Shown here piece by piece: positions 4,330 to 55,178 of a stretch of 64,000 nucleotides of DNA; the first letter of the stretch is position 1, and the number at the start of each line of letters is the position of its first letter. Origin of the DNA: Escherichia phage YUEEL01. The stretch lies in sequence record NC_054935.2; one strand, 5' to 3'. The notes under the pieces are model-generated. The model saw only the letters and a program-made list of their open reading frames with translations, searched no databases and had not been told where the DNA came from. Position numbers and translations under genes: made by a program.

Positions 4330-7026
4330 ATGAAAGAATTTTATATCTCTATCGAAACAGTCGGAAATAACATTGTTGAACGTTATATTGATGAAAACGG
4401 AAAGGAACGTACTCGTGAAGTAGAATATCTTCCGACTATGTTTAGGCATTGTAAGGAAGAGTCAAAGTACAAAGACATCTATGGTAAAAATTGCGCTCCT
4501 CAAAAATTTCCATCAATGAAAGATGCTCGAGATTGGATGAAGCGAATGGAAGACATCGGTCTCGAAGCTCTTGGTATGAACGATTTTAAACTCGCTTATA
4601 TCAGTGATACGTATGGTTCAGAAATTGTTTATGACCGAAAATTTGTTCGTGTAGCTAACTGTGACATTGAGGTTACTGGTGATAAATTTCCTGATCCAAT
4701 GAAAGCTGAATATGAAATTGATGCTATCACTCATTATGATTCAATTGATGATCGTTTTTATGTTTTCGACCTTTTGAATTCAATGTACGGTTCAGTATCA
4801 AAATGGGATGCAAAGTTAGCTGCTAAGCTTGACTGTGAAGGTGGTGATGAAGTTCCTCAAGAAATTCTTGACCGAGTAATTTATATGCCATTTGATAATG
4901 AGCGTGATATGCTCATGGAATATATTAATCTCTGGGAACAGAAACGACCTGCTATTTTTACCGGTTGGAATATTGAGGGATTTGACGTTCCGTATATCAT
5001 GAATCGTGTTAAAATGGTTCTCGGTGAACGTAGTATGAAACGCTTCTCTCCAATCGGTCGAGTAAAATCTAAACTAATTCAAAATATGTACGGTAGCAAA
5101 GAAATTTATTCTATTGATGGCGTATCTATTCTTGATTATTTAGATTTGTACAAGAAATTCGCTTTTACTAATTTGCCGTCATTCTCTTTGGAATCAGTTG
5201 CTCAACATGAAACCAAAAAAGGTAAATTACCGTATGATGGTCCTATTAATAAACTTCGTGAGACTAATCATCAACGATACATTAGTTATAACATCATTGA
5301 CGTAGAATCAGTTCAAGCAATTGATAAAATTCGCGGGTTTATCGATCTAGTTTTAAGTATGTCTTATTATGCTAAAATGCCTTTTTCTGGTGTAATGAGT
5401 CCTATTAAAACTTGGGATGCTATTATTTTTAACTCACTGAAAGGTGAACATAAGGTTATTCCTCAACAAGGTTCGCACGTTAAACAAAGTTTTCCGGGTG
5501 CATTTGTATTTGAACCTAAACCAATTGCTCGTCGATATATTATGAGTTTTGACTTGACGTCTCTGTATCCGAGCATTATTCGTCAGGTTAACATTAGTCC
5601 TGAGACTATTCGTGGTCAGTTTAAAGTTCATCCAATTCATGAATATATCGCAGGAACAGCTCCTAAACCGAGTGATGAATATTCTTGTTCTCCGAATGGA
5701 TGGATGTATGATAAGCATCAAGAAGGTATCATTCCAAAGGAAATCGCTAAAGTATTTTTCCAGCGTAAAGATTGGAAAAAGAAAATGTTCGCTGAAGAAA
5801 TGAATGCCGAAGCTATTAAAAAGATTATTATGAAAGGCGCAGGGTCTTGTTCAACTAAACCTGAAGTTGAACGATATGTTAAGTTCAGTGATGATTTCTT
5901 AAATGAACTATCGAATTACACCGAATCCGTTCTCAATAGTTTGATTGAAGAATGTGAAAAAGCAGCTACACTTGCTAATACAAATCAGCTGAACCGTAAA
6001 ATTCTTATTAACAGTCTTTATGGTGCTCTTGGTAATATTCATTTCCGTTACTATGATTTGCGAAATGCTACTGCTATCACAATTTTCGGCCAAGTTGGTA
6101 TTCAGTGGATTGCTCGTAAAATTAATGAATATCTGAATAAAGTATGCGGAACTAATGGCGAAGATTTCATTGCAGCAGGTGATACTGATTCGGTATATGT
6201 TTGTGTAGATAAAGTTATTGAAAAAGTTGGTCTTGACCGATTCAAAGAGCAGAACGATTTAGTTGAATTCATGAATCAGTTCGGTAAGAAAAAGATGGAA
6301 CCTATGATTGATGTTGCATATCGTGAGTTATGTGATTATATGAATAACCGCGAGCATCTGATGCATATGGACCGTGAAGCTATTTCTTGCCCTCCACTTG
6401 GTTCAAAGGGCGTTGGTGGATTTTGGAAAGCGAAAAAGCGTTATGCTCTGAACGTTTATGATATGGAAGATAAGCGTTTTGCTGAACCACATCTAAAAAT
6501 CATGGGTATGGAAACTCAGCAGAGTTCAACGCCTAAAGCGGTCCAAGAAGCTCTCGAAGAAAGTATTCGTCGTATTCTTCAGGAAGGTGAAGAGTCTGTC
6601 CAAGAATATTACAAGAACTTCGAGAAAGAATATCGTCAACTTGACTATAAAGTTATTGCTGAAGTAAAAACTGCGAACGATATAGCGAAATATGATGATA
6701 AAGGTTGGCCAGGATTTAAATGTCCGTTCCATATTCGTGGTGTGCTAACTTATCGTCGAGCTGTTAGCGGTTTAGGTGTAGCTCCAATTTTGGATGGAAA
6801 TAAAGTAATGGTTCTTCCATTGCGTGAAGGAAATCCATTTGGTGACAAATGCATTGCTTGGCCGTCGGGTACAGAACTTCCAAAAGAAATTCGTTCTGAC
6901 GTACTGTCTTGGATTGACTACTCAACTTTGTTCCAAAAATCGTTTGTTAAACCGCTTGCGGGCATGTGTGAATCGGCTGGTATGGACTATGAAGAAAAAG
7001 CTTCGTTAGACTTCCTGTTTGGCTGA
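4330..7026 (+). CDS. 43: gp43 DNA polymerase (family B) with 3'-5' exonuclease
   Basis: 898 aa; motifs DxxSLYPS and YGDTDS; matches T4 gp43 length. Confidence 0.95.
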   Translation: MKEFYISIETVGNNIVERYIDENGKERTREVEYLPTMFRHCKEESKYKDIYGKNCAPQKFPSMKDARDWMKRMEDIGLEALGMNDFKLAYISDTYGSEIVYDRKFVRVANCDIEVTGDKFPDPMKAEYEIDAITHYDSIDDRFYVFDLLNSMYGSVSKWDAKLAAKLDCEGGDEVPQEILDRVIYMPFDNERDMLMEYINLWEQKRPAIFTGWNIEGFDVPYIMNRVKMVLGERSMKRFSPIGRVKSKLIQNMYGSKEIYSIDGVSILDYLDLYKKFAFTNLPSFSLESVAQHETKKGKLPYDGPINKLRETNHQRYISYNIIDVESVQAIDKIRGFIDLVLSMSYYAKMPFSGVMSPIKTWDAIIFNSLKGEHKVIPQQGSHVKQSFPGAFVFEPKPIARRYIMSFDLTSLYPSIIRQVNISPETIRGQFKVHPIHEYIAGTAPKPSDEYSCSPNGWMYDKHQEGIIPKEIAKVFFQRKDWKKKMFAEEMNAEAIKKIIMKGAGSCSTKPEVERYVKFSDDFLNELSNYTESVLNSLIEECEKAATLANTNQLNRKILINSLYGALGNIHFRYYDLRNATAITIFGQVGIQWIARKINEYLNKVCGTNGEDFIAAGDTDSVYVCVDKVIEKVGLDRFKEQNDLVEFMNQFGKKKMEPMIDVAYRELCDYMNNREHLMHMDREAISCPPLGSKGVGGFWKAKKRYALNVYDMEDKRFAEPHLKIMGMETQQSSTPKAVQEALEESIRRILQEGEESVQEYYKNFEKEYRQLDYKVIAEVKTANDIAKYDDKGWPGFKCPFHIRGVLTYRRAVSGLGVAPILDGNKVMVLPLREGNPFGDKCIAWPSGTELPKEIRSDVLSWIDYSTLFQKSFVKPLAGMCESAGMDYEEKASLDFLFG

Positions 7027-7039
7027 TAGAATAAATCTA

Positions 7040-7060
7040 GGGACCTCCGGGTCCCTTTTT
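7040..7060 (+). terminator. intrinsic terminator after gene 43
   Basis: GGGACC-TCCG-GGTCCC followed by TTTTT. Confidence 0.7.
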
Positions 7061-7142: not shown

Positions 7143-7172
7143 GTTTACAAGAATGTTCTTCCATGGTACTAT
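7143..7172 (+). promoter_or_regulatory. T4-type early promoter
   Basis: GTTTAC, 18 bp spacer, TACTAT; palindromic spacer AAGAATGTTCTT. Confidence 0.6.
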
Positions 7173-7209
7173 ACAACTATCAACTACTGATACGGATTTG
7201 GAGAATAAA

Positions 7210-7446
7210 ATGAAAATTGTTATGGGATGCTTAGCAGTTTGTTTAGTTGCATTAGCAGCAGTTCCATTTGTTAGTGTTGAAAATGATACTCAACCTGTGA
7301 TTGAATCTAGCACTGTTATTCACACTAATGGTAAAATATCAGTTAAAATTGATGATAATCTTCATGTGAATACAAATGGATCTTTAGGTGTGCAAATGGG
7401 TAATACCTGCATAAGCACTACTGGAGTAATTACTACTTGCATTTGA
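7210..7446 (+). CDS. small secreted protein (signal-peptide-like N-terminus)
   Basis: SD GGAGAA then ATG; hydrophobic N-terminus MKIVMGCLAVCLVALAAVPF. Confidence 0.45.
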   Translation: MKIVMGCLAVCLVALAAVPFVSVENDTQPVIESSTVIHTNGKISVKIDDNLHVNTNGSLGVQMGNTCISTTGVITTCI

Positions 7447-7456
7447 GGAAATTATT

Positions 7457-7837
7457 ATGAAAATCGCTATTTTGGTTATTGCATTAGGTCTTACTGGTTG
7501 TGTAGCTCAAGGACCGGCAGTAAATCAGTCTGATGTAGGAAAAATTGTAAACTGTTCAAACAAATTTTATAATCCTAATGTCAAGTGTTATAAAGAAGCT
7601 CCAAAGCAAACAGTAGAACAAATGCAGGCGAATTTTGACGAAGCTATTCGTCCAGATGAATCTGCTCAAGCATATCGTAATTCGGATGTAATTACACGCG
7701 AAGAAAAAATTGAAAACTACTGCGCAGAACTTTGGGCAAATTGGGCTAATAATTACCAATGGCGTACAGGTAAAAATGCTCCGATGGAGTATGTAGTGAA
7801 TTCTTATAATTCATGTGTAAAAAATTTGACTAAGTGA
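7457..7837 (+). CDS. predicted lipoprotein
   Basis: SD GAGGAA; N-terminus with lipobox LTGC; several Cys in mature part. Confidence 0.5.
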   Translation: MKIAILVIALGLTGCVAQGPAVNQSDVGKIVNCSNKFYNPNVKCYKEAPKQTVEQMQANFDEAIRPDESAQAYRNSDVITREEKIENYCAELWANWANNYQWRTGKNAPMEYVVNSYNSCVKNLTK

Positions 7838-7844
7838 GGAAAAC

Positions 7845-8096
7845 ATGGAAACTTTAGTAGCAGGTTCAATTTTTATGGTTTTAGTTTCAGGTGTGTTGGC
7901 TATTATTATATACATGCTTCCATGGTTTATCGCCTTGATGCGTGGGTCAAAATCGACAGTAGGAATCTTTTTCACATCTTTACTGTTTAACTGGTCAATT
8001 ATTGGTTGGTTTATTACATTTATTTGGTCAATTGCAGGTGAAACTAAAAAGTCTGCGCAGCCAAATCAGGTAATTATCATCAGAGAGAAGGAATGA
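7845..8096 (+). CDS. imm: Imm superinfection immunity membrane protein
   Basis: 83 aa, two hydrophobic segments, position next to gene 42. Confidence 0.85.
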   Translation: METLVAGSIFMVLVSGVLAIIIYMLPWFIALMRGSKSTVGIFFTSLLFNWSIIGWFITFIWSIAGETKKSAQPNQVIIIREKE

Positions 8097-8242
8097 AAAG
8101 CAAAATTATAGCAGTGTTGCTTTTAATCTTGATGGTTATAATAAGTATATACTATAGCGTAACAGTTCCTGCTATGATTCCAACTATTATTTTAGGTTGG
8201 GGTTTATTACTGTTACAATTTAAATATGAATGCATCAATTGA
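8093..8242 (+). CDS. small hydrophobic membrane protein
   Basis: 49-aa ORF, ATGA overlap with imm stop. Confidence 0.35.
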   Translation: MKSKIIAVLLLILMVIISIYYSVTVPAMIPTIILGWGLLLLQFKYECIN

Positions 8243-8249
8243 GGTTTAA

Positions 8250-8990
8250 ATGATTAATGACTCTATGACAGTTGAAGAAATCCGTCTTCATTTGGGGCTT
8301 GCATTAAAAGAAAAAGATTTCGTAGTTGATAAAACTGGCGTTAAAACTATTGAAATTATTGGCGCATCATTTGTAGCAGATGAACCGTTTATTTTTGGCG
8401 CTCTTAATGATGAATACATTCAGCGTGAACTTGAATGGTATAAATCTAAGAGCTTGTTCGTTAAAGATATTCCGGGTGAAACACCGAAGATTTGGCAGCA
8501 GGTAGCATCTTCTAAAGGTGAAATTAACTCGAATTATGGCTGGGCTATCTGGTCAGAAGATAACTATGCCCAGTATGATATGTGTTTAGCTGAACTTGGT
8601 CAAAATCCTGATTCTCGACGTGGTATCATGATTTATACTCGTCCATCCATGCAATTTGACTACAATAAAGATGGTATGTCAGATTTCATGTGTACTAATA
8701 CAGTACAGTACCTGATTCGTGATAAGAAAGTCAATGCAGTAGTAAGCATGCGCTCAAATGACGTGGTCTTCGGATTCCGTAATGATTATGCATGGCAAAA
8801 ATACGTATTAGATAAATTAGTATCTGATTTGAATGCAGGCGATTCAACTCGTCAGTATAAAGCAGGTTCTATTATATGGAATGTTGGAAGTCTTCATGTA
8901 TATTCTCGTCATTTTTACTTGGTTGATCATTGGTGGAATACTGGCGAAACTCATATTGTGAAAAAAGATTATAACGGTGAGTGGAAATGA
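8250..8990 (+). CDS. 42: gp42 dCMP hydroxymethylase
   Basis: 246 aa; thymidylate-synthase-like fold protein at the conserved position. Confidence 0.9.
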   Translation: MINDSMTVEEIRLHLGLALKEKDFVVDKTGVKTIEIIGASFVADEPFIFGALNDEYIQRELEWYKSKSLFVKDIPGETPKIWQQVASSKGEINSNYGWAIWSEDNYAQYDMCLAELGQNPDSRRGIMIYTRPSMQFDYNKDGMSDFMCTNTVQYLIRDKKVNAVVSMRSNDVVFGFRNDYAWQKYVLDKLVSDLNAGDSTRQYKAGSIIWNVGSLHVYSRHFYLVDHWWNTGETHIVKKDYNGEWK

Positions 8991-9829
8991 TTCAATTCGT
9001 AATTCCAAGCTATCAACGTGTAGGGGCAGTTTCTGCCCTTGATATGTTTCCGACTGATTATGAACCTCATATTGTAGTGCGTGAACACGAAGAAAAAGCT
9101 TATTATGATGCCTATGGGTCTAGAGCTAAAATTATAACTATTCCTGATGATGTAAACGGAATTGCCGGTACTCGTAAAGCAATTACTGATATGTATGCAG
9201 GTCAACGAATCTGGATGATTGACGATGATACTACTATCCGTATGAGTTCAATACGAAAGAGAGACGATAAACGGCGCGTAGATAAAATTAATCAATTAAC
9301 TCGTGAACAGTTCTATGAATTGATTCAATATGTTGAGGATGCCATGGATTGCGGATATTATCATGGCCATGCTCGTCTACCAATTTTTAAAATTACTTCA
9401 TCTTGGGGTAATTATCGTGAAAATTCATATGGATTCACGAATACATGGTATGACCTCGGAAAACTTACGACAGAACAAATTGGGTATGGAAAAATTGATT
9501 TATGCGAAGATATGTATGCATTTCTCAATTTAATTAATCAAGGTTATCCGCATTTGGCCTTGTTCAAATATCTAGTTGTATCTGGAAAAGCACAAGCTCC
9601 TGGCGGGTGTAGTTCAATTCGTAGTAATTCTAAACATAATAGAGCGCTTGAGCAAATCAATAGAGAGTTTCCAGAGCAAGCTCGTTGGAAAACTTCTAAT
9701 ATTGAAAAACGAAAATCGTTGGGTGAAGAAGACGAGCCATTAAAGGTTCTTCGCATGTGCGTTTCGCGTAAAGAAAAATCAGAAGCATTTCATAAGTTTA
9801 ATGCTATTCATCCAATAGCAGTTGATTAA
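8987..9829 (+). CDS. putative glycosyltransferase with DXD motif at the beta-gt locus (candidate HMC-DNA glucosyltransferase of non-T4 type)
   Basis: About 280 aa versus T4 beta-gt 351 aa; IPSYQR N-terminus and IWMIDDDTTI (DXD) suggest GT-A fold. Confidence 0.5.
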   Translation: MIQFVIPSYQRVGAVSALDMFPTDYEPHIVVREHEEKAYYDAYGSRAKIITIPDDVNGIAGTRKAITDMYAGQRIWMIDDDTTIRMSSIRKRDDKRRVDKINQLTREQFYELIQYVEDAMDCGYYHGHARLPIFKITSSWGNYRENSYGFTNTWYDLGKLTTEQIGYGKIDLCEDMYAFLNLINQGYPHLALFKYLVVSGKAQAPGGCSSIRSNSKHNRALEQINREFPEQARWKTSNIEKRKSLGEEDEPLKVLRMCVSRKEKSEAFHKFNAIHPIAVD

Positions 9830-13422: not shown

Positions 13423-13716
13423 ATGAAAAAATTTATCTTTGCTGCAATTTTTGCTTTATCTTCTTGCGCTGCTCAGCCTGCTATGGCGGGTTATGACAAA
13501 GATTTGTGCGAATGGTCTATGACTGCAGATCAGACTGAAGTTGAAATTCAAATTGAAGCGGATATTATGAATATCGTTGAACGTGATCGTCCTGAAATGA
13601 AAGCTGAAGTGCAAAAACAACTTAAATCTGGTGGTGTAATGCAGTATAATTATGTTCTGTATTGCGATAAAAACTTTAATAATAAAAATATCATCGCTGA
13701 AGTGGTAGGTGAGTAA
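13423..13716 (+). CDS. sp: Spackle periplasmic protein (lysis inhibition / superinfection exclusion)
   Basis: 97 aa with signal peptide; position. Confidence 0.75.
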   Translation: MKKFIFAAIFALSSCAAQPAMAGYDKDLCEWSMTADQTEVEIQIEADIMNIVERDRPEMKAEVQKQLKSGGVMQYNYVLYCDKNFNNKNIIAEVVGE

Positions 13717-25841: not shown

Positions 25842-26345
25842 ATGATTAAAAATAATGCTGTTTATCAATTGAAAAAATTTGATGAAATTAAGAATTTTCC
25901 GGTACTGTCTAATACAGCTCATAATAAGTTTTGTGAACTTCTTGCTTTAACTGGCGGATATCCTTTTACTGTTATTAGTGTTAATAGCGGAATTCTTATC
26001 GGCATGATGTATATTGAAATTAGAAACTATTATGGAATGGTGTCATCGCTTATTATTTATGAAAAAGATTTTAGTCTATTGACAGAAATTGAAAAAGAAG
26101 AACAGGAAAAATTCCATATTGATATGGATTTAGTTTCTATGTATGTGGCACCAGTTGAAAAAATTGAATACCCGACTGATTTGTTGTGTAAGGCGGTTTA
26201 CATTCGTCGTCCATTCGCGAATCCGGTCGGTGGTTGGGTAACTGACCAGTGGATTGAAGATGGCGTTGAACTTCTGAACGTAGTTCATGCTGGAGAATAC
26301 TCTGTAGTTCCTCGTAGCGCAGTGATTAATGTTCGTGTAAGCTAG
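25842..26345 (+). CDS. hypothetical protein, MotB paralog
   Basis: C-terminal TDQWIEDGVELLNVV...VVP resembles next ORF. Confidence 0.45.
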   Translation: MIKNNAVYQLKKFDEIKNFPVLSNTAHNKFCELLALTGGYPFTVISVNSGILIGMMYIEIRNYYGMVSSLIIYEKDFSLLTEIEKEEQEKFHIDMDLVSMYVAPVEKIEYPTDLLCKAVYIRRPFANPVGGWVTDQWIEDGVELLNVVHAGEYSVVPRSAVINVRVS

Positions 26346-35056: not shown

Positions 35057-35086
35057 GTTTACAAGACTGTTCTTCCGTGGTACTAT
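35057..35086 (+). promoter_or_regulatory. T4-type early promoter
   Basis: GTTTAC, 18 bp, TACTAT. Confidence 0.6.
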
Positions 35087-55148: not shown

Positions 55149-55178
55149 GTTTACATCCCTGTTCTTCTATGGTACTAT
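55149..55178 (+). promoter_or_regulatory. T4-type early promoter
   Basis: GTTTAC, 18 bp, TACTAT. Confidence 0.6.

What the first reader, a model, noticed from the sequence alone, without database searches (positions are those of the whole stretch)
7143..8242. Cluster of early-expressed secreted, lipoprotein and membrane ORFs flanking imm
Downstream of gene 43 an early promoter drives a 79-aa signal-peptide protein, a 126-aa lipobox (LTGC) protein with six cysteines, Imm, and a 49-aa hydrophobic peptide coupled to the imm stop. Imm is a superinfection-immunity protein; co-expressed envelope proteins of unknown function next to it are candidates for further superinfection-exclusion or envelope-remodelling functions, and the ORF count appears to differ from what I recall for T4.
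Basis: partly seen in the sequence, partly recalled or inferred. Interest (0 to 1): 0.45.

Follow-up and report, generated by a model that had tools for sequence, protein, structure and literature searches.

The report
Envelope gene cluster flanking phage imm
Just after its DNA polymerase gene, this T2/T4-type phage has an early operon of four small exported or membrane proteins: the known superinfection blocker Imm, a lipoprotein (Imm.1) that always travels with it and is the best untested candidate partner, a swappable cargo gene, and a widely conserved 49-residue membrane peptide. All four are already catalogued as uncharacterised families.

Summary
Two details were wrong. The first ORF is 78 aa, not 79. 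Imm.1 has five cysteines, not six.

The window is a T2/T6-like Tequatrovirus, and this interval is about 98% identical to hundreds of sequenced phages.

- **Promoter:** a T4-type early promoter (7143-7172) follows the gene 43 terminator.
- **ORF78:** occupies a variable cargo slot. The slot is empty in T4 and T6, holds an unrelated soluble ORF in T2, and holds a Frd.3-like ORF in one metagenomic phage. It is therefore an accessory gene, not a fixed part of an imm module.
- **Imm.1 (DUF5481):** a canonical lipoprotein under purifying selection as strong as Imm (dN/dS 0.05 vs 0.04). A homologous lipoprotein lies beside imm in every T-even lineage examined, including Mosigvirus, where the pair has moved next to spackle.
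- **ORF49:** a genuine conserved two-segment membrane peptide. It is present but unannotated in the T4 RefSeq record. It is coupled to whatever gene precedes it, not specifically to imm, and it contains the gene 42 middle promoter.

No function is known for ORF78, Imm.1 or ORF49. The only well-supported new inference is a functional Imm.1-Imm link, and it is untested.

The parts
7039..7056 (+). Intrinsic terminator of gene 43: a GC-rich hairpin AGGGACCTCCGGGTCCCT followed by a T-run.
   Evidence: 7 pairs, 5 of them GC, then TTTTT. Conserved in T4 and T6.
7143..7172 (+). T4-type early promoter: an A/T-rich UP region, GTTTACA at -35, a 17-nt spacer, then TGG-TACTAT (TGn plus -10). The predicted start is near 7179.
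   Evidence: one of 10 plus-strand family members in the window, against 0.1-0.3 expected. The architecture matches the UP/-35/TGn/-10 early promoters described in PMC2988021. T4 imm.1 is an early RNA and early protein.
7210..7446 (+). ORF78 (78 aa, phrog_4189), an accessory gene. The N-terminus is MK followed by a 21-residue uncharged segment, which could be a Sec signal with an ALA|A site or a signal anchor. A beta-rich domain of about 55 aa follows, ending in a Cys67...Cys77 loop.
   Evidence: Found in 323 phage records, all Tequatrovirus-type. dN/dS is 0.33. The AF2 model is low-confidence (pLDDT 53). Absent from T4 and T6.
7457..7837 (+). imm.1 (126 aa, Pfam DUF5481 / phrog_1754), a predicted lipoprotein. 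The lipobox is LTGC with Cys15. The +2 residue is Val, which predicts outer-membrane sorting. Four further cysteines are present, and C89 and C120 are invariant across the family.
   Evidence: (E 3.7e-71), (invariant N32, Y38-N39-P40, K43, Y45, Y73-R74, S76, C89, C120; dN/dS 0.05; early protein in T4; only 6 clusters among 1.84 billion representative proteins).
7845..8096 (+). imm (83 aa), the superinfection immunity inner-membrane protein.
   Evidence: (PF14373, E 7.7e-16). 100% identical to T2 and T6 Imm and 98.8% to T4 Imm. The function (binding the tape measure protein gp29 and blocking genome translocation) comes from bioRxiv 10.64898/2026.03.06.709160.
8093..8242 (+). ORF49 (49 aa, phrog_3610; T4 '5.6 kDa protein in Gp42-imm intergenic region', called gp42.1 in RB14). 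It has two hydrophobic segments, an invariant MIPT turn motif, and a C-terminal Q-x-K/R-x-x-C-x-N motif. Its start overlaps the imm stop as ATGA.
   Evidence: Homologs occur in 565 phage records across Tequatro-, Dhaka-, Gapriver-, Winkler- and Kanagawavirus and RB69-like phages. The cross-genus codon-position pattern is 0.36/0.19/0.53, with median dN/dS 0.23.
8118..8149 (+). MotA-type middle promoter of gene 42, embedded in ORF49 codons 9-19. It has a MotA-box-like TGCTTTTA (8118-8125) and a TATAAT -10 (8137-8142). The position equivalent to the mapped T4 start site is 8149.
   Evidence: The sequence is. The T4 P42 start site at 26320 comes from Table 1 of PMC2988021. It was mapped through L001 coordinates: 26376-26320 = 56 nt after the ORF49 start.
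8250..8990 (+). Gene 42 (dCMP hydroxymethylase), the next gene of the same transcription unit. No terminator lies between ORF49 and it.

Best explanation
**Shown**
- The gene 43-gene 42 interval is the promoter-proximal part of an early transcription unit. It runs from the terminator through the T4-type early promoter to four tightly packed ORFs with N-terminal export or membrane signals.
- The module has layers of different evolutionary stability.
  - Imm.1 plus Imm is a conserved pair. A lipoprotein of the DUF5481 superfamily accompanies imm in every T-even lineage examined. This holds even when the pair has moved to another locus. Both genes are under equally strong purifying selection.
  - ORF49 is a conserved two-segment membrane micro-protein. 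It stays at the position downstream of gene 43 and is translationally coupled (ATGA) to whichever gene precedes it. Its coding sequence also carries the gene 42 middle promoter, so it can be made only from the early transcript.
  - ORF78 is accessory cargo in a hyperplastic slot between the promoter and imm.1. The slot is bounded by conserved sequence on both sides that allows cassette exchange.

**Inferred**
- It presents a disulfide-stabilised helical domain in the periplasm.
- There it acts in the same process as Imm and Spackle: neutralising the tail tip or genome-delivery machinery of a superinfecting T-even phage. Imm blocks the tape measure protein at the inner membrane and Spackle blocks gp5 lysozyme, so Imm.1 would cover a step on the periplasmic or outer-membrane side.
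- ORF78 is a separate, dispensable periplasm-exposed factor. ORF49 is an inner-membrane micro-protein with a role not restricted to Imm.
For: **Organisation**
- ORFs, ribosome-binding sites, terminator, promoter and promoter family.
- T4 Imm.1 is an early RNA and a detected early protein, the same class as sp.

**Imm.1-imm linkage**
- Directly adjacent in Tequatrovirus.
- In Mosigvirus the order is dmd, imm.1-like, imm, sp.
- Also adjacent in Gelderlandvirus and Jiaodavirus-type Klebsiella phages.
- Adjacent in metagenomic contigs carrying the 31-45% identical homologs P0004, P0005 and P0007.
- In Dhaka- and Gaprivervirus the order is imm, ORF45/47, lipoprotein.

**Homology of the short and long lipoproteins**
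- hhalign probability is 97.9%, E 3.6e-13. With signal peptides removed it is 81%, E 1.2e-5.

**Selection and target conservation**
- dN/dS is 0.05 for imm.1 and 0.036 for imm.
- Imm.1 is about 97-98% identical in T2, T4 and T6, which use different receptors (established knowledge). Its target is therefore something conserved.

**Location**
- P0004 replaces the lipobox with an SPase-I-type signal (LAGF..AHA|S). This points to a periplasmic site of action.

**ORF78 as cargo**
- Slot states are documented, with frequencies: about 323, 31 and the remainder of about 500 Tequatrovirus records.

**ORF49**
-.

**Precedents for the mechanism**
- Imm binds the tape measure protein.
- Spackle inhibits gp5 lysozyme (PMC7677548).
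- The lipoprotein Ltp of phage TP-J34 targets a tape measure protein (the title of Bebeacua et al. 2013, as listed among the references of PMC3952083).
Against: - No experiment links Imm.1, ORF78 or ORF49 to exclusion. Searches of the held literature found only a speculative remark about Imm.1 (PMC5885020).
- From my own knowledge of Lu & Henning 1989, not retrieved here: imm alone on a plasmid excludes T-even phages.
- From my own knowledge of the classical genetics, not retrieved here: classical genetics needed only imm and sp.
- Related lipoproteins occur downstream of gene 43 in Winklervirus X20 and Kanagawavirus Q7622, where imm is not in the locus. Whether those genomes carry imm elsewhere was not determined.
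- Gene adjacency in T-even early regions can reflect shared regulatory cassettes rather than shared function (PMC2839356 and PMC4122927).
- The structure prediction is low-confidence (pLDDT 63) and no fold or sequence relative of known function was found. The mechanism therefore rests on context alone.
- Lipidation and outer-membrane sorting are rule-based predictions.
Confidence: 0.45

Rival explanations
1. Imm.1 and its longer relatives are early periplasmic or outer-membrane lipoproteins with a job unrelated to exclusion. Possibilities are envelope stabilisation against lysis from without, a role in lysis timing or lysis inhibition, or neutralising a host envelope factor. They sit next to imm only because both need immediate-early expression from the same cassette.
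For: - Related lipoproteins persist downstream of gene 43 in X20 and Q7622, with no imm in the locus.
- From my own knowledge of the classical literature, not retrieved here: imm alone suffices for exclusion from a plasmid.
- The 2026 Imm study needed no partner for function or for tape-measure binding.
- T-even early regions shuffle by promoter-terminator cassettes.
Against: - The pair stays together after relocation in Mosigvirus. There it lands beside sp, the other exclusion gene.
- Adjacency holds in at least 8 lineages down to about 30% identity.
- Other cargo in the same operon is freely swapped, while imm.1 is not.
Confidence: 0.3
2. All four proteins form one superinfection-exclusion or envelope-remodelling machine. 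This is the broad reading of the first-stage note.
For: One promoter, tight spacing and overlap, and all four products predicted to reach the envelope.
Against: - ORF78 is absent from T4 and T6. T2 and L044 carry unrelated soluble proteins in its place.
- ORF49 is absent where imm abuts gene 42 directly (Gelderlandvirus, Jiaodavirus-type, L047). Elsewhere it is coupled to a sugar isomerase.
Confidence: 0.08
3. Imm.1 is an Llp/Cor-type receptor-masking lipoprotein. It would block adsorption by binding the phage's outer-membrane receptor from the periplasmic side.
For: It is a small, early lipoprotein of the outer-membrane type with disulfide-forming cysteines, like T5 Llp (PMC9586334 and bioRxiv 10.64898/2026.03.26.714494, as listed).
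Against: - Imm.1 is about 97-98% identical in T2, T4 and T6, which use different receptors (plus established knowledge).
- From my own knowledge, not retrieved here: T-even exclusion does not block adsorption.
- No sequence or fold similarity to any solved structure.
Confidence: 0.05
4. ORF49 and/or ORF78 are not functional proteins. On this reading ORF49's conservation reflects the embedded gene 42 middle promoter and its 5' leader, and ORF78 is a decaying insert.
For: - The mapped T4 P42 start lies inside ORF49.
- Within Tequatrovirus, dN/dS is only about 0.35 for ORF49 and 0.33 for ORF78.
- ORF49 is left unannotated in the T4, T2 and T6 records.
- ORF78 shows length variants and a rearranged copy in CT01.
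Against: - ORF49 keeps its frame, a length of 45-49 aa, its start overlap and invariant residues in genera where the downstream gene is not gene 42. The third-position excess (0.53 vs 0.19 at position 2) and dN/dS of 0.23 are coding signatures.
- ORF78 is intact in about 300 genomes. Its C-terminal 20 residues are almost invariant and its indels are in-frame.
Confidence: 0.07

Closest known systems
The imm.1 - imm - '5.6 kDa ORF' - gene 42 interval of phages T4, T2 and T6 (Tequatrovirus)
   Same: Same genes in the same order with the same terminator and early promoter. Imm is 99-100% identical, Imm.1 about 97-98% and ORF49 90-96%. The whole 1.2-kb interval is 98-98.6% identical to many sequenced Tequatroviruses.
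   Different: The window carries ORF78 in the slot that is empty in T4 and T6 and holds an unrelated 83-aa ORF in T2. T4 also has a 1-nt insertion at the imm.1/imm junction. This shortens Imm.1 by one residue and opens a 94-aa imm reading frame that does not exist here.
T4 Spackle (gp61.3), a periplasmic inhibitor of gp5 lysozyme
   Same: An early, Sec-exported, small, disulfide-containing helical periplasmic protein of T-even phages. It is a genetic neighbour of imm.1-imm in Mosigvirus. It falls in the same early RNA and protein class as Imm.1 in T4.
   Different: No sequence similarity. Spackle is soluble and Imm.1 is lipid-anchored. Spackle's target is known (PMC7677548) and Imm.1's is not. 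In this window sp lies 5 kb away, at 13423-13713.
Ltp of Streptococcus phage TP-J34 and gp15 of HK97 (exclusion proteins that target the tape measure protein)
   Same: Ltp is a lipoprotein exposed on the outer face of the membrane that blocks DNA injection through the tape measure protein. Imm, the neighbour of Imm.1, also binds a tape measure protein.
   Different: No detectable homology. Ltp comes from a temperate Gram-positive phage and is prophage-expressed. The resemblance to Imm.1 is an analogy that motivates a test, not a finding.
T5 Llp and lambdoid Cor (receptor-blocking outer-membrane lipoproteins)
   Same: Small early phage lipoproteins predicted to sit in the inner leaflet of the outer membrane, with disulfide bonds.
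   Different: Llp and Cor are receptor-specific for FhuA. Imm.1 is nearly invariant across phages with different receptors. No homology was found.
PeSL promoter-terminator cassettes of T4-type phages (PMC2839356, PMC4122927)
   Same: A terminator hairpin plus an early promoter flanks a site where small ORFs are inserted, deleted or replaced between close relatives. The promoter at 7143 shares an extended consensus with others in the window.
   Different: I did not test the formal PeSL motif definition. Here the exchange boundaries are the promoter and leader on one side and the first codons of imm.1 on the other.

Membership tests
Imm_superinfect (PF14373), T4 Imm | Pfam model match above the gathering score | tested here: met
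   58.2 bits against a cutoff of 27.9, E 7.7e-16. phrog_1039 'immunity to superinfection' at E 3.6e-32.
Imm_superinfect (PF14373), T4 Imm | Near-identity to the experimentally characterised T4 protein, including the functionally tested residues R33 and W50 | tested here: met
   98.8% identical to T4 Imm (A44T only). R33 and W50 are present. Their roles come from bioRxiv 10.64898/2026.03.06.709160.
Imm_superinfect (PF14373), T4 Imm | Excludes superinfecting T-even phage | not testable with these tools
   Needs a plaque or exclusion assay.
DUF5481 / T4 Imm.1 | Pfam model match above the gathering score | tested here: met
   236.5 bits against a cutoff of 27, E 3.7e-71, covering profile positions 1-103 of 103.
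Bacterial lipoprotein (Lgt/LspA substrate), applied to Imm.1 | Positively charged n-region, hydrophobic h-region, and a lipobox [LVI][ASTVI][GAS]C with Cys at residue 15-25 | tested here: met
   MK-IAILVIALG-LTGC15. The lipobox is conserved in Mosigvirus, Gelderlandvirus, Jiaodavirus-type, Dhakavirus and other relatives. P0004 is the exception, with an SPase-I-type signal.
Bacterial lipoprotein (Lgt/LspA substrate), applied to Imm.1 | Outer-membrane sorting: no Asp at +2 (the E. coli Lol-avoidance rule, established knowledge) | tested here: met
   The +2 residue is V, G, A, S or Q across the superfamily and never D. This is a sequence rule only.
Bacterial lipoprotein (Lgt/LspA substrate), applied to Imm.1 | Actual lipid modification and globomycin-sensitive processing | not testable with these tools
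   Needs labelling or fractionation. LipoP and SignalP are not available here.
Sec signal peptide (SPase I substrate), applied to ORF78 | n-region charge and a hydrophobic h-region | tested here: met
   MK followed by 21 uncharged residues, with Kyte-Doolittle 19-residue window values up to 2.73.
Sec signal peptide (SPase I substrate), applied to ORF78 | A c-region with a -3/-1 small-residue cleavage site after an h-region of normal length | tested here: inconclusive
   A14-L15-A16|A17 fits the AXA rule but lies inside the hydrophobic stretch. Natural variants lengthen that stretch by 7 residues, which fits a signal anchor equally well. One variant (P0018) gains a LAAC lipobox. No predictor was available.
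Phage superinfection-exclusion lipoproteins (Llp, Cor, Ltp), considered for Imm.1 | Sequence or fold homology to a characterised member | tested here: not met
Phage superinfection-exclusion lipoproteins (Llp, Cor, Ltp), considered for Imm.1 | Confers exclusion when expressed | not testable with these tools
   Needs an experiment. No report was found.
T4 early promoter class | A/T-rich UP region, -35 GTTTAC, TGn, and a -10 at 17-nt spacing. Members occur on the early strand upstream of early genes. | tested here: met
   The class description is in PMC2988021. The T4 orthologous site is conserved and imm.1 is an early RNA.
ORF49 family (phrog_3610, PF26865, T4 5.6 kDa ORF / gp42.1) | Profile match | tested here: met
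   phrog_3610 at E 5e-26, full length. Close homologs carry a precomputed PF26865 hit. That model is not in the local Pfam copy, which returned no hit, so its name is unknown to me.
PeSL mobile regulatory cassette | A composite stem-loop terminator plus early promoter bordering indels or replacements between close relatives | tested here: inconclusive
   The terminator, the promoter and four alternative slot contents were seen. The published motif definition was not applied.

The most novel reading that the evidence does not exclude
Imm.1 is a third, so far unrecognised component of T-even superinfection exclusion. It would be an outer-membrane-anchored periplasmic lipoprotein that co-evolved with Imm. 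It would engage a conserved part of the incoming tail tip or tape measure protein, or Imm itself, before that machinery reaches the inner membrane. ORF49 would be a small inner-membrane accessory made only in the first minutes of infection.
Probability: 0.3. Interest if true: 0.6.

Novelty: already known. Interest (0 to 1): 0.33.

Why it matters
T-even superinfection exclusion is a classic problem whose two known players were explained structurally only recently: Spackle in 2020 and Imm in a 2026 preprint. The comparative pattern found here gives a cheap, specific hypothesis for a possible third player. A lipoprotein stays glued to imm through relocation and down to about 30% identity, under the same selective pressure as imm.

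The work also cleans up annotation:
- ORF49 is a real, widely conserved gene missing from the T4, T2 and T6 records.
- The RefSeq name 'iduronate sulfatase' for imm.1 has no support in any search run here.
- The 94-aa Imm reading frame is specific to T4.

Otherwise the locus is an ordinary, well-sampled piece of Tequatrovirus genomes.

Tried and rejected
- **Remote homology for Imm.1.** The word-indexed search found only 3 close clusters. Exhaustive phmmer over 1.84 billion representatives found 6 clusters, all T-even-like. NCBIfam and PADLOC gave only chance-level hits.
- **PDB sequence profiles** for Imm.1, the long lipoproteins and ORF78 gave nothing significant. A match of ORF78 to the beta-helix of a baseplate central spike protein (E 3.1) is at chance level and I rejected it as evidence.
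- **Paralogs** of the four proteins elsewhere in the window: none.
- **ORF78 as a lipoprotein.** Rejected for this window. VMGC has its Cys at residue 7, which is too early, and LAVC has Val at -1. Some variants do gain a LAAC or LVAC lipobox.
- **Llp-like receptor masking.** Rejected because Imm.1 is nearly identical in T2, T4 and T6.
- **Lipoproteins next to distant Imm-domain genes outside T-even phages:** none. The pairing is specific to T-even phages.
- **Literature.** No paper on the function of Imm.1, DUF5481 or PF26865 was found. The T4 genome review PMC150520 is not held.
- **Not done.** I did not determine whether X20 and Q7622 encode imm elsewhere in their genomes.
Full report
**What is in the sequence.** The window is a T-even phage. 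Gene 43 DNA polymerase (4330-7026) is followed by four same-strand ORFs. After them come gene 42 (8250-8990), a beta-glucosyl-HMC-alpha-glucosyltransferase (8981-9829) and uvsX. The glucosyltransferase type and the near matches show a T2/T6-like Tequatrovirus rather than T4 itself. The 1.2-kb interval is 98-98.6% identical to many phage records. The exact Imm.1 and ORF49 proteins occur in Escherichia phage YUEEL01.

**Checking the observation.** The coordinates are right.
- A GC-rich hairpin plus T-run ends gene 43 at 7039-7056.
- The promoter-like site at 7143-7172 reads GTTTACA, 17 nt, TGG-TACTAT.
- It is one of ten plus-strand matches to that pattern in the window, against 0.1-0.3 expected from shuffles.
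- It shares an extended consensus (TTTTCACAAAAC-GTTTACA...TGGTACTATACAACTATCAA) with other members.
- This is the UP/-35/TGn/-10 architecture described for T4 early promoters (PMC2988021).
- In T4, imm.1 is classed as early at both the RNA and protein level (PMC9697503 supplements).

Each ORF has a Shine-Dalgarno sequence, and the imm stop overlaps the ORF49 start as ATGA. Two details were wrong. The first ORF is 78 aa; the 97-aa frame starts inside the promoter spacer and so lies upstream of the transcript. Imm.1 has five cysteines (15, 33, 44, 89, 120), not six.

**Are they genes?**
- Within Tequatrovirus, dN/dS is 0.05 for imm.1, 0.036 for imm, 0.33 for ORF78 and 0.35 for ORF49.
- Across genera, ORF49 homologs keep their frame, length (45-49 aa), overlapping start and invariant residues (MIPT, W36, Q42, C47, N49).
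- Their divergence by codon position is 0.36/0.19/0.53, with median dN/dS 0.23.
- All four belong to catalogued families: phrog_4189, DUF5481/phrog_1754, PF14373/phrog_1039 and phrog_3610/PF26865.

**Comparison with T4.** The T4 RefSeq record annotates only imm.1 and imm between genes 43 and 42.
- The 49-aa ORF is nevertheless present in T4, T2 and T6 at 90-96% identity, in the supposedly intergenic 153 nt.
- Swiss-Prot lists it as an uncharacterised 5.6 kDa protein, and RB14 calls it gp42.1.
- ORF78 is truly absent from T4 and T6. There the promoter leader (GGAGAATGAA) joins directly to ATGAAAATCGC of imm.1. This is a 247-bp difference bounded by the shared ATGAAAAT of the two gene starts.

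**ORF78 sits in a cargo slot.** At least four contents are found between the promoter and imm.1:
- nothing (T4, T6);
- ORF78 (323 records);
- an unrelated 83-aa ORF with no hydrophobic N-terminus (T2 and about 30 other records);
- a Frd.3-like 70-aa ORF in a metagenomic relative.

The window and T2 share the identical junction GAGGAAATTATT-ATGAAAATCGC in front of imm.1 although their cargo differs. Phage CT01 shows a rearranged slot with a duplicated promoter. This is the kind of cassette exchange described for promoter-terminator elements in T4-type phages. ORF78 itself is confined to Tequatrovirus. Its N-terminal hydrophobic segment tolerates 7-residue duplications. A beta-rich domain of about 55 aa follows, with an almost invariant C-terminal GNTC-x9-CI. 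The structure model is unreliable (pLDDT 53). Export is likely. Whether the signal is cleaved or acts as an anchor cannot be decided here.

**Imm.1 is the constant companion of imm.** Imm.1 has a textbook lipoprotein signal (MK-IAILVIALG-LTGC) and no Asp at +2. The family is tiny: six 50%-identity clusters among 1.84 billion proteins, all T-even-like.

Every divergent member found lies immediately upstream of an Imm_superinfect gene. These are P0004, P0005 and P0007 on metagenomic contigs and the 33%-identical Mosigvirus homolog. In Mosigvirus the pair has left the gene 43 region and sits as dmd, imm.1-like, imm, spackle. All three early envelope genes are therefore clustered there.

Longer lipoproteins share the post-lipobox S/D-E-V-G-K motif and a C-terminal two-cysteine helical region (searches give hhalign 97.9%, or 81% and E 1.2e-5 without signal peptides). 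Their positions are:
- directly upstream of imm in Gelderlandvirus and in Jiaodavirus-type Klebsiella phages;
- two genes downstream of imm in Dhaka- and Gaprivervirus.

Distant Imm-domain genes in unrelated phages have no such neighbour. Imm.1 is about 97-98% identical in T2, T4 and T6. These phages use different receptors, which argues against a receptor-masking role. One homolog has an SPase-I-type signal instead of a lipobox, which points to the periplasm as the site of action.

**ORF49 is conserved by position, not tied to Imm.** It follows imm, with the same ATGA overlap, in Tequatro-, Dhaka- and Gaprivervirus and in contigs L044 and L045. In RB69-like JK45, Winklervirus X20 and Kanagawavirus Q7622 it is coupled in the same way to a sugar isomerase gene. 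In Gelderlandvirus, the Jiaodavirus-type phages and L047, imm runs straight into gene 42 without it.

The mapped T4 middle promoter P42 (start 26320; PMC2988021 Table 1) corresponds to window position 8149. A MotA-box-like TGCTTTTA lies at 8118-8125 and TATAAT at 8137-8142, inside ORF49 codons 9-17. ORF49 can therefore be translated only from the early transcript.

**Mechanism.**
- *Shown:* the operon layout, the export and membrane signals, the selection figures and the synteny.
- *Known from the literature:* Imm binds the tape measure protein gp29 and blocks genome translocation. Spackle inhibits gp5 lysozyme.
- *Inferred:* Imm.1 is an outer-membrane-tethered periplasmic protein acting in the same exclusion process. 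The Gram-positive lipoprotein Ltp, which targets a tape measure protein, is an analogy.

No homology or fold evidence supports any particular target. No experiment on Imm.1 was found; there is only a speculative remark in PMC5885020. From my own knowledge of the classical papers, which were not retrieved here, imm alone excludes phage from a plasmid. Any Imm.1 contribution would therefore be auxiliary or conditional.

**Verdict.** The cluster is real and correctly located. It is a well-sampled, already catalogued part of Tequatrovirus genomes. It is weakened for ORF78 (swappable cargo) and for ORF49 (not specific to imm). Interest is moderate to low. It rests on a cheap, specific and testable hypothesis for a third exclusion factor, plus some annotation corrections.

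Noticed in passing
window 8118-8149: The MotA-dependent middle promoter of gene 42 lies inside the ORF49 coding sequence. It has a MotA-box-like TGCTTTTA, a TATAAT, and a position equivalent to the mapped T4 start site 26320. These bases therefore serve as both codons and promoter, and transcripts from this promoter cannot encode ORF49.
   Followed up: partly
window 7826-7847 versus L001 (T4) 5125-5160: T4 has one extra C (GACCTAAG versus GACTAAG) at the imm.1/imm junction. This shortens Imm.1 to 125 aa and puts an upstream ATG in frame with imm, giving the 94-aa form used for cryo-EM in the 2026 preprint. In this window, as in T2 and T6 (where Imm.1 is 126 aa), that upstream frame hits a stop, so the extension is specific to T4.
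   Followed up: partly
L006 2495-3530 (Mosigvirus O157 typing phage 3); also L017, L018: In Mosigvirus the imm.1-like lipoprotein, imm and spackle are three consecutive genes between dmd and the primase region. The ORF49 homolog stays behind near gene 43.
   Followed up: yes
L010 900-1750 (Shigella phage CT01): The slot is rearranged. It reads: promoter, the first 32 codons or so of imm.1 fused to an internal ORF78 fragment, then a second copy of the promoter and an intact imm.1. This is either a recombination intermediate or an assembly artefact.
   Followed up: partly
ORF78 codons 8-17 (window 7231-7260); variants P0012, P0018, P0019 and L009 1126-1383: Several independent 7-residue in-frame duplications (CLVALAA-type) lengthen the hydrophobic N-terminal segment. 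In P0018 the duplication creates a canonical LAAC lipobox, and UniRef names that variant 'Lipoprotein'.
   Followed up: partly
NC_000866.4 T4p046 (L001 5137-5514) and many RefSeq/PGAP records: imm.1 is annotated as 'iduronate sulfatase' in RefSeq and as 'immunity protein' in many GenBank records. No search here supports either name.
   Followed up: partly
window 35057-35086 and 55149-55178, compared with 7143-7172: Three early promoters share not only the hexamers but almost the same spacer (CTGTTCTTCC) and flanks. This suggests duplicated or exchanged promoter cassettes.
   Followed up: partly
window 13423-13713 (+): The spackle (sp) gene lies 5.2 kb downstream of imm. Its product is 66% identical to the Mosigvirus Sp used as the query.
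   Followed up: partly
window 8981-9829: The gene after gene 42 is a 282-aa beta-glucosyl-HMC-alpha-glucosyltransferase (TAGT family). It has a GTG start overlapping the end of gene 42. T4 has beta-glucosyltransferase plus segA here instead. A terminator-like hairpin lies at 9021-9041, inside the start of the gene.
   Followed up: no
ORF78 residues 23-67 versus PDB 9f4a_BB residues 499-543: There is a weak, statistically insignificant resemblance (E 3.1) between the beta-rich part of ORF78 and the beta-helix of a baseplate central spike protein. It is probably compositional.
   Followed up: partly
L004 1408-1827 (X20) and L005 1301-1828 (Q7622): Related lipoproteins sit directly after gene 43 in phages whose locus has no imm and instead carries arabinose-type sugar-modification genes. 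Whether these genomes have imm elsewhere was not checked.
   Followed up: no
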